64,000 nt of DNA, taken from contig OZ024748.1 of NCBI GenBank assembly GCA_964016885.1, forward strand, positions 24,180,001 through 24,244,000. Reading direction: 5' to 3'. Source of the DNA: Eledone cirrhosa. Taxonomy: Eukaryota. Positions within the stretch are counted from its first letter, which is position 1. Every line of letters starts with the position of its first letter. Position numbers and translations under genes: made by a program. Shown one piece after another: positions 301-14,930 of the stretch. The notes under the pieces are model-generated. The model was not told the DNA's origin, made no database searches, and saw only the letters and a program-made list of their open reading frames with translations.

Positions 301-1520
301 GGGTGGTGGTGGTGGTGGTGGTGGTGTAGTGGGGGAGATTGAGACAGGGGTGGTGGTGGTGGTGTAGTGGGGGAGATTGAGACGGTGGTGGTGGTGGTGG
401 TGTAGTGGGGGAGATTGAGACAGGGGTGGTGGTGGTGTAGTGGGGGAGATTGAGACAGGGGTGGTGGTGGTGGTGTAGTGGGGGAGATTGAGACAGGGGT
501 GGTGGTGGTGGTGGTGGTGGTGGTGTAGTGGGGGAGATTGAGACAGGGGTGGTGGTGGTGGTGTAGTGGGGGAGATTGAGACAGGGGTGGTGGTGGTGGT
601 GGTGGTGGTGGTGGTGTAGTGGGGGAGATTGAGACAGGGGTGGTGGTGGTGGTGTAGTGGGGGAGATTGAGACAGGGGTGGTGGTGGTGGTGGTGTAGTA
701 CTGTAGTGGGGGAGATTAAGACAGGGGTGGTGGCGGTGGTGGTGGTGGTGTACTGTAGTGGGGGAGATTGAGACAGGGGTGGTGGTGGTGGTGGTGGTGG
801 TGGTGGTGGTGTACTGTAGTGGGGGAGATTAAGACAGGGGTGGTGGTGGTGGTGTAGTGGGGGAGATTGAGAAAGGGGTGGTGGTGGTGGTGTAGTACTA
901 TAGTGGGGGAGATTGAGATAGTGGTGGTGGTGGTGGTGGTGTAGTACTGTAGTGGGGGAGATTGAGACAGGGGTGGTGGTGGTGGTGTAGTGGGGGAGAT
1001 TGAGACAGGGGTGGTGGTGGTGGTGTAGTACTGTAGTGGGGGAGATTGAGACAGGGGTGGTGGTGGTGGTGGTGTAGTGGGGGAGATTGAGACAGGGGTG
1101 GTGGTGGTGGTGTAGTACTATGGTGGGGGAGATTGAGACAGTGGTGGTGGTGGTGGTGGTGTAGTACTGTAGTGGGGGAGATTGAGACAGGGGTGGTGGT
1201 GGTGGTGTAGTACTGTAGTGGGGGAGATTGAGACAGTGGTGGTGGTGGTGGTGTAGTGGGGGAGATTGAGACAGGGGTGGTGGTGGTGTAGTGGGGGAGA
1301 TTGAGACAGGGGTGGTGGTGGTGGTGTAGTACTATAGTGGGGGAGATTGAGACAGTGGTGGTGGTGGTGGTGTAGTACTGTAGTGGGGGAGATTGAGACA
1401 GGGGTGGTGGTGGTGGTGAAGTGGGGGAGATTGAGACAGGGGTGGTGGTGGTGTAGTGGGGGAGATTGAGACAGGGGTGGTGGTGGTGTAATGGGGGAGA
1501 TTGAGACAGGGGTGGTGGTG
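301..1520 (+). repeat. G-rich minisatellite, ~33-50 bp unit GTAGTGGGGGAGATTGAGACAGGG(GGT)n
   Basis: Directly visible tandem repeat with a variable GGT count and an optional GTAGTACT insert. Its reverse complement is at 13778-14930. Confidence 0.95.
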
Positions 1521-1589
1521 TGGTTGATATCAGAGAATATCAATCTGGAAAAGAAATATGTATGTTGTTGGTTTTGAAAGTTCCAGTTA

Positions 1590-1795
1590 ATACAATCAAA
1601 GGAACTGCTTGCTCGTGGAATCAACGTATAAGTATCTGAGCATTCAACGGTCACGTGCAATCTTAACGTAGTTATCAGGGAGATTCAGCGTGACACGATG
1701 TGAGACCCCCCCCCCCCCATGAATTACAGGTGAAAATTGATTTTTGCAAGCTGAGTGGACTGATGCAACGCCAAATAACGTGTTTTGTTTAACCG
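1590..1795 (-). mobile_element. SINE fragment (second dispersed family); mirror copy at ~13505-13710
   Basis: Shares CTTAACGTAGTT...GGGAGATTCAGCGTGACAC...GAATTACAGGT...GCTGAGTGGACTG blocks with 37100-37340, 40335-40735 and 50555-50830. Confidence 0.6.
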
Positions 1796-11688: not shown

Positions 11689-14600
11689 TGATAGCTAACA
11701 AGCTTGAAACTAGTACATCGTTCCTGTGTCAGTGTTGAACAAAAAGGTGAGGTGGTTGCCTTAACACCGTATGGCATAAATTCAGGCTGTTCAGTTTGTT
11801 TACAAACCAACAAAGCGACGTTATAATAAGCGCCGCTAAACTGATACGTGCATATATGTATGTGTACCTGTATGCATATGTATGTATATATGTATATATA
11901 TATATATATGTGCATGCTACTGTACGTCTGTATACATATATGTATGTACGTATACATGCATACTTACATTTATATATATATATATACATTTATATATATA
12001 TATATATATATATATATATATATATATATATATATATATATATATATATATATATATGTATATATATATATATATATATATATATATATATATATATATA
12101 TATATATATATATATATATATATATATACATACATATAAATAGAGAGAGTGAGAGAGAGAGAGAAATGCATAAATACACACATATATAGATCTAAAATTT
12201 AAAAGTGTTTCTTCTTTCTCCCTTTCTTCTTTTTCTTCTTCTTCTTCTTCTTCATCCACTTATTCATGAGGAACTGGTCCTGGGAGTAGAATCGTTAATC
12301 ACATCTTCTAGAGGGGTCCTATCAGAACCAACCCTCTGCATGTGATCCGGATGGATCTCCATACAAACCCCCCAACCGACATGGTGTTACTTAACTTGTC
12401 GGAAGGTGATCTCCGACAAACACTGGAGAAAATTGGCTGCGGAGTAATTATGTAATTACACAAACCTGTCTTAACATTTATTTGTATAACGGTACTTCGT
12501 CGTGTAAGACACGATCCCATATCAATGGTGGATCAATACTACCGACGTGGAGTTCTTGCTCCTGTTTACACCATAATGTGTCGATTGAGATGAGGCATAC
12601 GAAACACTTAGAAATAAATGATTGAATAAATAACAACTATAAATAAATGTGCGTGGGTGTGTGGGTGTGTGTGTGGGGGTGTGGGTGTGTGTGTGTGTGT
12701 GTGTGTAGGCGAAATCATACATTCATTTTCCTTACATGAAACTACTAGTTCCTGTTATTTGCTGAATGTTCATTATCTATGTAAACGTCATGTCAACGAA
12801 GTAAATATATATTTGGTTTGAAGTAATGTTGGCCGTATTGAAAGGTTTCCCATCACTTTACATATATGGCTTCCTTAGTTCTACAGAAGTTAGAATCCAA
12901 TTATTTTGTTTAGAACGTAACAGATGTAATATCATTCTGTATTACATACGTGGAGGCGTGTAGCTTAGTGGTTAAGGTGTTCAATTCACAAACGTCAGGT
13001 CGTGAGGTTGATTCCTTGATTGGGCGGTGCGTTGTGTCCTTAACCCTTCAGCATTTACATTACTCTATATTTACTATTATATTTTTACGGTAAAGGCTTT
13101 ATCTCACATAATTATCTCACATAATATTATTTATTTTGAGAACAATGGGCGGTGGATTGGCAGTATCAGTAGAGAGTCGGACGCCATGCTTTCCAGCATA
13201 GTTACGTCCCTTTACGATCTGAGTTCAAATCCTGCCGAGCTTGACTCTGCCTTTCATCCTTACGGGGTCGATAAAATAAAGTACCAGTAATACACTGGGT
13301 AATTGCTGGCCTTGTGCCTAAAGTAGAAACAATTATTTATTTTGAGAACAATACCATAACATCAATATAAATACACACACATATATTTTGACATTATTTA
13401 TTTTGAGAACAATACCTTAACATCGGTATGAGCTGCCGGTTGTGGCCGGATTGATCAGAAAAGGTAAGAGAATTCTGGCCGGATATGGTTGATTTCGATG
13501 CTAAACGGTTAAACAAAACACGTTATTTGGCGTTGCATCAGTCCACTCAGCTTGCAAAAATCAATTTTCACCTGTAATTCATGGGGGGGGGGGTCTCACA
13601 TCGTGTCACGCTGAATCTCCCTGATAACTACGTTAAGATTGCACGTGACCGTTGAATGCTCAGATACTTATACGTTGATTCCACGAGCAAGCAGTTCCTT
13701 TGATTGTATTAACTGGAACTTTCAAAACCAACAACATACATATTTCTTTTCCAGATTGATATTCTCTGATATCAACCACACCACCACCCCTGTCTCAATC
13801 TCCCCCACTACACCACCACCACCCCTGTCTCAATCTCCCCCACTACACCACCACCACCCCTGTCTCAATCTCCCCCACTTCACCACCACCACCACCCCTG
13901 TCTCAATCTCCCCCACTACAGTACTACACCACCACCACCACCACTGTCTCAATCTCCCCCACTATAGTACTACACCACCACCACCACCCCTGTCTCAATC
14001 TCCCCCACTACACCACCACCACCCCTGTCTCAATCTCCCCCACTACACCACCACCACCACCCCTGTCTCAATCTCCCCCACTACACCACCACCACCCCTG
14101 TCTCAATCTCCCCCACTACACCACCACCACCACCACCACCACCCCTGTCTCAATCTCCCCCACTACACCACCACCACCCCTGTCTCAATCTCCTCCACTA
14201 CACCACCACCACCACCCCTGTCTCAATCTCCCCCACTACAGTACATCACCACCACCACCGCCACCACCCCTGTCTTAATCTCCCCCACTACAGTACTACA
14301 CCACCACCACCACCACCCCTGTCTCAATCTCCCCCACTACACCACCACCACCACCCCTGTCTCAATCTCCCCCACTACACCACCACCACCACCACCACCA
14401 CCCCTGTCTCAATCTCCCCCACTACACCACCACCCCTGTCTCAATCTCCCCCACTACACCACCACCACCCCTGTCTCAATCTCCCCCACTACACCACCAC
14501 CACCACCACCGTCTCAATCTCCCCCACTACACCACCACCACCACCCCTGTCTCAATCTCCCCCACTACACCACCACCACCCCTGTCTCAATCTCCTCCAC

Positions 14601-14930
14601 TACACCACCACCACCACCCCTGTCTCAATCTCCCCCACTAAACCACCACCACCACCCCTGTCTCAATCTCCCCCACTACACCACCACCACCACCACCACC
14701 GTCTCAATCTCCCCCACTACACCACAACCACCACCCCTGTCTCAATCTCCCCCACTACACCACCACCACCACCACCACCCCTGTCTCAATCTCCCCCACT
14801 ACACCACCACCACCACCACCACCACATCTGTCTCAATCTCCCCCACTACAGTACTACACCACCACCACCACCACCACCACCCCTGTCTCAATCTCCCCCA
14901 CTACACCACTATCACCACCACCAGCACCAC
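11686..14930 (+). repeat. Right arm of giant inverted duplication
   Basis: Reverse complement of 301-3625: partial repeat unit, (TA)n, LINE/SINE fragments and minisatellite, with only a handful of substitutions in the unique part. Confidence 0.95.
13148..13331 (+). mobile_element. Nin/Deu-core tRNA-SINE (mirror copy of 1970-2154)
   Basis: Same sequence and TSD as the left-arm copy. Confidence 0.85.

What the first reader, a model, noticed from the sequence alone, without database searches (positions are those of the whole stretch)
301..14930. ~14.6-kb palindrome: retrozyme array capped by an inverted copy of its own 3' end plus ~3 kb of host flank
Seen: 11686-~14930 is the reverse complement of 3625-~301. 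The right arm carries the unit-1-specific variant TTGGTTTGTA (the other units read TTCGTTTGTA), so it was copied from the far end of the array and ran on through (TA)n, SINEs and the minisatellite. The arms differ by only a few substitutions. Known: Penelope-like elements often carry inverted 5' repeats. Inference: retrozyme integration was resolved by a template switch that duplicated kilobases of host DNA in inverted orientation, so a non-coding ribozyme element may drive structural variation. Read-through transcripts could form long dsRNA.
Basis: partly seen in the sequence, partly recalled or inferred. Interest (0 to 1): 0.8.

Follow-up and report, generated by a model that had tools for sequence, protein, structure and literature searches.

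The report
Retrozyme-seeded inverted host duplication
A mobile repeat with a predicted self-cutting RNA sits in two back-to-back arms, as is usual for its family, and here 3 kb of neighbouring host DNA also stands in mirror image, likely from a one-off repair accident after insertion rather than from the insertion itself.

Summary
The palindrome is in the assembly: 300-3625 mirrors 11686-~14990 (5 substitutions in 2113 non-minisatellite columns) around 17.7 copies of a 472-bp hammerhead-motif unit. The inverted cap is not special. It is the family's normal Penelope-type architecture: insertion in (TA)n as two head-to-head arms, one with a ~60-bp tail and one without (51 tail/no-tail pairs, 0 no-tail/no-tail pairs on 344 Mb of contig C1). 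The host duplication is special: 0 of 24 other two-armed copies have it, and here both ends lack the tail, so one end is a DNA copy. The right arm runs on into native sequence; the left arm stops inside the minisatellite and is fused by 1 bp of microhomology into an older Penelope-like element. Divergences order the events: that element, then the array, then the duplication. Best reading (0.55): a later template switch seeded by the element's own inverted arms copied the short arm plus 3 kb leftwards and deleted the tailed end. Integration-coupled copying 0.15, assembly artefact 0.12. The junctions remain unverified by reads.

The parts
1..299 (-). Cut end of an autonomous-type Penelope-like element (RT-thumb to GIY-YIG region; continues to about 1811 bases left of the window, where it ends on (TA)n without its tail)
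   Evidence: all 9 other copies read continue past 299 with the same element sequence
299..300 (.). Left outer breakpoint: element interior fused to the middle of a minisatellite unit, 1-bp microhomology (A)
300..1524 (+). Left copy of the locus-specific GGT-rich minisatellite, cut short at its outer end (inferred derived copy)
1525..3338 (+). Left copy of host DNA (single-copy DNA, one SINE-like repeat, microsatellites, (TA)n target tract 3167-3338); inferred derived copy
3339..11688 (-). Retrozyme-type tandem array, 17.7 x 472 bp; RNA sense on the minus strand; outer end lacks the family tail
3339..3625 (-). Part of unit 1 that mirrors the short arm; carries the private variant at 3503
10678..10722 (-). 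One example of the type I hammerhead motif (one per unit): stem I, CUGAUGA, 3-bp stem II on a U-U pair, GAAA, 2-bp palindromic stem III, GUA cleavage triplet; activity untested
11686..11688 (.). Central head-to-head junction, 3-bp microhomology TGA; unique in the genome
11686..11972 (+). Short inverted arm of the element (287 bp, no tail); inferred original second arm
11973..13774 (-). Right copy of host DNA; inferred native copy
13775..14999 (-). Right minisatellite copy with 4-9 extra outer units, a long (CAC)n run and a degenerate terminal unit motif (15 of 16 match, 14984-14999) running into single-copy flank

Best explanation
This is a two-armed, head-to-head copy of a hammerhead-motif repeat whose tailed end was likely replaced, some time after insertion, by an inverted DNA copy of its short arm plus 3 kb of host flank. 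Step 1 (architecture shown, enzyme inferred): a Penelope-like RT-endonuclease, borrowed in trans, cut a (TA)n tract and primed cDNA on both strands from two start sites about 60 nt apart, giving a long tailed arm on the left and a 287-bp tailless arm on the right, joined at TGA. Step 2 (inferred): the short arm acquired the C-to-G variant. Step 3 (inferred): a broken or stalled strand moving leftwards out of the long arm switched by homology onto the inverted short arm 8 kb away, copied it outwards through (TA)n, the host DNA and most of the minisatellite, then joined by 1-bp microhomology into an older Penelope-like element further left. The tail, the original left flank and the rest of that element were lost. 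Step 4 (shown as differences): both arms have since mutated. The retrozyme supplied the inverted repeat; host replication or repair did the copying.
For: Family rule: 17 of 24 two-armed loci have one tailed (unit position 414-422) and one tailless (position 472/1-7) end, 1 has two tailed ends, 0 two tailless, 6 are degraded or composite (read by hand); among exact end motifs on C1:1-344 Mb, 51 tail/no-tail head-to-head pairs against 0 no-tail/no-tail; the one candidate further along C1 was two separate insertions. The window has two tailless ends with the same 40-base outer flank. No inverted host flank starting at the element ends in 24 of 24 other loci. Central junction typical: 13 of 22 other junctions resolved to overlaps of 0-16 bp, 12 of them 0-5 bp. 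Polarity: the minisatellite motif occurs only in these two arms, 37 matches in 3.0 Gb; the right copy has extra outer units and a degenerate terminal unit; the left copy abuts the interior of a multi-copy element. Order of events: left element 10 private changes in 1443 columns (0.69%), closest of 4 top copies 14 mismatches over about 1490 columns; array units 0.42% from their majority; arms 0.12% each (Fisher p 0.0009 for element against arms, 0.004 for units against arms). A fresh array has 2 variant cells in 19,564, so copying error at insertion is too low to explain the shared variant easily. Two-switch rearrangements on inverted repeats are known (PMC9851044, passages; PMC10622511, abstract).
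Against: No empty allele or ortholog was available, so the deletion and the direction are inferred. Units against arms is not significant when shared variants are counted once (p 0.10), and gene conversion between arms could both lower their divergence and spread the unit-1 variant. Recombination between the arms can flip the spacer, so which element arm now lies beside the native flank is not proof of the original layout. Tailless single-armed copies exist (about 10 of 20 unpaired ends read), so the missing partner arm of the left element is weak evidence. Only 40 of 3285 candidates were scored when seeking its closest copy. None of the three junctions is confirmed outside the assembly.
Confidence: 0.55

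Rival explanations
1. Integration-coupled fold-back: the nascent long cDNA folded back onto its first unit, copied 287 bp and 3 kb of host DNA, and was rejoined by microhomology; later conversion or a spacer flip would give today's layout.
For: Both ends are tailless copies of one end; unit 1 and the short arm share a private variant; conservative age test not significant (p 0.10); Penelope elements are reported to capture host DNA and to show palindromes at inverted junctions (PMC3846280, passages).
Against: 0 of 24 two-armed loci and 0 of 92 tailless ends on C1 show it; the junction is an ordinary family junction; the switch would have to pick unit 1 of 18, 8 kb away, on 3 bp; the native flank lies beside the short arm, which needs an extra flip; copying error at insertion is about 0.01%.
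Confidence: 0.15
2. Assembly artefact: a fold-back chimeric read or a mis-join of two haplotypes or loci.
For: Junction 28-mer occurs once in the genome; arm divergence of 0.24% with different minisatellite lengths could be allelic; tandem plus inverted repeats are known to trouble assemblies (PMC8557442, passages).
Against: Derived changes lie on both arms: left at 2120 (51 of 55 SINE copies have the right-arm base), 2193 and minisatellite unit 1, right at 11751, which a single fold-back read cannot give; the outer flanks differ, so the arms are not simple alleles; the junction has the family's normal form; no N in the window; only two copies of the arm DNA exist in the assembly.
Confidence: 0.12
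3. The left Penelope-like element triggered the event: its own 5'-truncated cDNA end at 299 primed on the minisatellite and the copying ran through the host DNA into the retrozyme.
For: The breakpoint is a Penelope-like element end with 1-bp microhomology, as 5' truncations often are; its cDNA strand and the array's cDNA strand are both the plus strand; it is a tailless arm without partner.
Against: It looks 3-6 times older than the arm duplication; best other copy 98%.
Confidence: 0.08
4. The palindrome was once longer, with the left arm native, and a separate later deletion cut the left arm back to 300.
Against: Needs two events; 50 kb upstream shows no host match to 69 kb downstream other than transposon copies with unrelated flanks.
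Confidence: 0.1

Closest known systems
Non-LTR retrozymes (PMC7229834; bioRxiv 10.64898/2026.07.22.740005)
   Same: Tandem units of a few hundred bp, GC 36%, one type I hammerhead motif per unit, no RT, thousands of copies (8518 exact core matches).
   Different: Unit 472 bp, slightly above the 150-450 bp quoted in PMC7229834 but within the 51-972 bp of the preprint; the passages read do not describe head-to-head arms or tails for retrozymes; circular RNA and cleavage untested here.
EN+ Penelope-like elements: inverted 5'-truncated copy and one-sided tail (PMC8557442, PMC3846280, PMC11167929)
   Same: Head-to-head inverted arms, variable 5' truncation, tail at one end only, microsatellite/AT-rich target, hammerhead motif.
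   Different: No ORF for RT/endonuclease in the unit; tail about 59-63 bp against the 30-40 bp reported; normal copies do not duplicate host flank, and two tailless ends break the rule.
Inverted-repeat-mediated two-switch rearrangements (DUP-TRP/INV-DUP, MMBIR; PMC9851044) and fold-back inverted duplications (PMC3907307, PMC10622511)
   Same: One switch by homology within an inverted repeat, one by microhomology; inverted duplication next to a deletion with a single-copy spacer.
   Different: Kilobase scale, interstitial, seeded by the two arms of one retrozyme insertion; no triplication or dicentric step visible.

Membership tests
Non-LTR retrozyme | Short tandem units, GC under 50% | tested here: met
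   17.7 x 472 bp, GC 0.36
Non-LTR retrozyme | Type I hammerhead in each unit | tested here: met
   Core CUGANGA/GAAA/GUH 93-100% conserved in 74 distinct family sequences with only the free N position variable (58%); 11 of 12 stem pairs 91-99% paired, mostly by invariance. Rfam below cut-off.
Non-LTR retrozyme | No encoded RT, dispersed multi-copy family | tested here: met
   Only 100-135 aa ORFs through the TA-rich part; no Penelope-protein match in the array; 8518 core matches
Non-LTR retrozyme | Self-cleavage and circular RNA | not testable with these tools
   No assay; see Tried and rejected for the run search
Penelope-mobilised element | Inverted 5'-truncated copy at the 5' end | tested here: met
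   Head-to-head arms at 24 loci read and 51 motif pairs
Penelope-mobilised element | Tail extension at one end only | tested here: met
   Met for the family, with about 60 bp rather than 30-40 bp; this copy has no tailed end
Penelope-mobilised element | Microsatellite / AT-rich target | tested here: met
   (TA)n at nearly all outer ends printed
Penelope-mobilised element | pLTR homology to an autonomous partner | tested here: inconclusive
   The neighbouring element's end matches the unit only in TA repeats; no partner found, no genome-wide search made
   0 of 24 loci; 0 of 92 tailless ends on C1 in a tailless pair; 0 of 20 unpaired ends read
Inverted-repeat-mediated two-switch rearrangement | One junction inside repeat homology, one at microhomology | tested here: met
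   Seamless join between unit positions 169 and 287 inferred from the variant; 1-bp microhomology at 299
Inverted-repeat-mediated two-switch rearrangement | Parental allele showing the pre-rearrangement layout | not testable with these tools
   No relatives of this genome are held

The most novel reading that the evidence does not exclude
A protein-free ribozyme element, using a borrowed Penelope enzyme that primes both DNA strands from two different RNA start sites, plants ready-made inverted repeats at hundreds of loci, and in rare events its integration intermediate itself copies kilobases of host DNA in mirror image. The first half is well supported at family level (about 0.6); the second, integration-coupled half is what is not excluded.
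Probability: 0.15. Interest if true: 0.7.

Novelty: new variant of a known kind. Interest (0 to 1): 0.4.

Why it matters
The single palindrome is a curiosity: no gene is involved, and it was the only case among the copies examined. The more useful result is the family rule it breaks. Retrozyme arrays here insert as two arms with exactly one tailed and one tailless end, which ties animal retrozymes to the Penelope enzyme by insertion anatomy and fits the in vitro finding of two start sites and extension on both strands (PMC11167929). It predicts that each insertion uses both start sites, one per strand, which an in vitro assay can test. A near-invariant 43-unit two-armed copy also suggests that long arrays go in at once rather than only by local amplification. 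If the best reading holds, such insertions leave inverted repeats that can later seed deletions with inverted duplication.

Tried and rejected
Read support: the run search listed 20 holders, all kept as contigs, and no RNA holder. Contigs of X1-X3 (one sample) and X5 were laid on the junction: no listed piece bridges 11687, and 11645-11659 has no cover at 99% likeness. Only 32 of 5791 and 24 of 873 pieces were shown, the runs may be of another individual, and contigs show presence, not absence, so this is no evidence either way. Larger palindrome: matches between upstream and downstream DNA are separate non-LTR copies; rejected. 3' transduction from a source elsewhere: the arm DNA has only these two copies; rejected. 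DNA-transposon end at 299: other copies continue past it and it encodes RT/endonuclease-type protein; rejected. Apparent flank repeats at L051, L060, L066, L035 and the C1:437.95 Mb pair: other elements, not host duplication from the element ends (L060 and L066 judged from self-alignments only). Pfam gave no significant hit for the left element's proteins; its label rests on Atlas clusters at 0.92-0.95 with RVT_1/HTH_animal shares of 12-93% and on recalled Penelope motifs; clade not tested. Plain folding did not return the hammerhead as the lowest-energy fold of the 121-nt piece (z -1.85). Earlier scan notes: none. PMC9977147 and PMC13282606 (passages) had nothing bearing on this; PMC3235474 was not held.
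Full report
Observation. The window is C8:24,180,001-24,244,000 of a 3.0-Gb genome. Self-BLAST confirms 11686-14928 as the reverse complement of 3625-302. Over 1501-3625 the arms differ by 5 substitutions in 2113 columns and three repeat-length indels; in the minisatellite only the inner units agree. Between them lie 17.7 units of 472 bp. Single-copy arm DNA has exactly two copies in the assembly. All of this is shown for the assembly; it is not confirmed by reads (see Tried and rejected).

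The element. The minus strand of each unit carries a type I hammerhead motif (10678-10722 in one unit). Across 74 distinct family sequences the core positions are 93-100% conserved except the free position of CUGANGA (58%), and 11 of 12 stem pairs are kept in 91-99%, mostly without change. Rfam gives nothing at gathering score and a weak hammerhead match at this spot. The core 29-mer occurs 8518 times in the genome. This meets the sequence definition of a non-LTR retrozyme (PMC7229834, passages; bioRxiv 10.64898/2026.07.22.740005, parts 1-2 of 5 and passages). Cleavage and circles are untested.

The inverted cap is the family norm. I read 44 groups of family loci: the clusters among the first 100 core matches on C1, plus top DNA matches elsewhere. 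24 were two-armed head-to-head. Outer ends lie on (TA)n and come in two types about 60 bp apart, unit position 414-422 (tail) and 472/1-7 (no tail). 17 of the 24 have one of each, 1 has two tails, none has two tailless ends, 6 are degraded or composite (counted by hand). With exact end motifs, 51 of 74 tailless ends on C1:1-344 Mb have a tailed partner head-to-head within 25 kb and none has a tailless partner. One tail/tail pair by distance has its own tailless partner nearer by. The single tailless pair among all 92 on C1 was two insertions. Of the 23 unpaired ends I read 20: 8 had an inexact tailed partner, about 10 were single-armed, 2 were unresolved, and none showed inverted host flank. 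Inverted copies with a one-sided tail are described for Penelope-like elements (PMC8557442, passages; PMC3846280, passages). In vitro, a Penelope protein cuts and extends both strands and starts at two sites that delimit the tail (PMC11167929, parts 1-2 of 4). That both arms are separately primed cDNAs is my inference from these. The window's central junction, 3-bp overlap, is ordinary: 13 of 22 other junctions resolved to overlaps of 0-16 bp, 2 to inserts of 1-3 bp, and 7 were unresolved because the copies differ from the reference.

The host duplication is the exception. In 24 of 24 other two-armed loci no inverted match runs from the element ends into complex flank (four apparent hits were other elements). 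By hand, the 95% upper bounds are about 12% (0 of 24) and about 3% (0 of 92). The window alone has two tailless ends with identical outer sequence, so one end is a DNA copy of the other and the tailed end is gone.

Which arm is the copy. Bases 1-299 are the inside of a multi-copy element: all 9 other copies read continue past 299 with the same sequence. A fuller copy encodes 415- and 223-aa pieces with RT-type Atlas neighbours and Penelope-like motifs that I recall rather than tested; Pfam found nothing. In the window it is fused, with one shared base, to the middle of a minisatellite unit. The minisatellite motif exists only in these two arms. The right copy has 4-9 further units, a long (CAC)n run and a terminal motif matching the unit at 15 of 16 bases before single-copy flank. 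Caveat: recombination between the arms could have flipped the spacer.

Timing. Left element: 0.69% private changes, 14 mismatches to the closest of four top copies (40 of 3285 candidates scored). Array units: 0.42% from their majority, 22 distinct variants. Arms: 0.12% each. Fisher p is 0.0009 for element against arms, 0.004 for units against arms, and 0.10 if shared unit variants are counted once. A fresh two-armed copy at C1:292.77 Mb has 2 variant cells in 19,564 over 42 units, so insertion copying is accurate and the shared variant most likely arose afterwards. Conversion between arms could bias the arm figure downwards.

Mechanism. One later event explains the two tailless ends, the shared variant, the lost tail, the cut minisatellite and the cut neighbour: a strand leaving the long arm switched onto the inverted short arm, copied it and 3 kb of flank, and joined the neighbour by microhomology. 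Two-switch events on inverted repeats (PMC9851044, passages) and break-induced inverted duplications at natural inverted repeats (PMC10622511 and PMC3907307, abstracts) are known. I give this 0.55; integration-coupled fold-back 0.15; artefact 0.12; a longer palindrome later cut back 0.10; triggering by the neighbour's insertion 0.08. Against artefact: derived changes on both arms and unlike outer flanks.

Novelty. Eight literature searches showed no paper whose listing or passages describe a retrozyme-seeded inverted host duplication or the tail-pairing rule in retrozymes; subscription journals and supplements were not covered. The parts are known kinds: retrozyme, Penelope-type insertion, inverted-repeat template switching. 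New are their combination at one locus and the counted one-tail rule. Verdict: real in the assembly, rare, probably secondary; interest 0.4.

Noticed in passing
L114-L117 (G000:C1:292,769,101-292,789,456): Two-armed insertion with about 26 + 17 units and only 2 variant cells in 19,564; suggests long arrays insert at once.
   Followed up: partly
window 1-299 and L031 8190-10000; L126, L127: The neighbouring Penelope-like family shows the same architecture: head-to-head arms, one with a tail of about 85 bp and one without, and a hammerhead-like motif of its own.
   Followed up: partly
window 3339-11688: Shared variants alternate between units 9/11/13 and 10/12/14 and cluster in 4-5, 6-8 and 17-18, pointing to dimer duplication or conversion inside the array after insertion.
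   Followed up: partly
window 15463-16840; L031 (about 2130-4430 and 290-710): Young copies (97-99% alike) of a non-LTR element; 304-aa ORF at 15561-16475 minus; restriction-like endonuclease type is recalled, not tested.
   Followed up: partly
L121-L122 (window-relative 79,114-83,341) and L120: 1053-aa open frame of an L1/Tx1-like ORF2 (label recalled) with 98.5% copies 42-50 kb upstream.
   Followed up: no
window 51159-51666: An older (about 80%) two-armed fragment of the same retrozyme family.
   Followed up: no
L051 2111-9214 (G000:C1:2.99 Mb): A 98% inverted structure several kb long, apparently from a different TA-inserting element, with a retrozyme copy inside its left arm.
   Followed up: partly
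L085, L110, L134: Other 97-99.8% inverted repeats of 0.6-1.3 kb from non-family DNA: 4 of 100 fetched 10-kb stretches including L051, probably further Penelope-type families.
   Followed up: no
window 11480-11870, runs X1-X3: Contigs show other inversion-type joints of the family (for example 11624 to 11715 in two runs, 11643 to 11710 in three), with only 20-28 letters on the short side.
   Followed up: no
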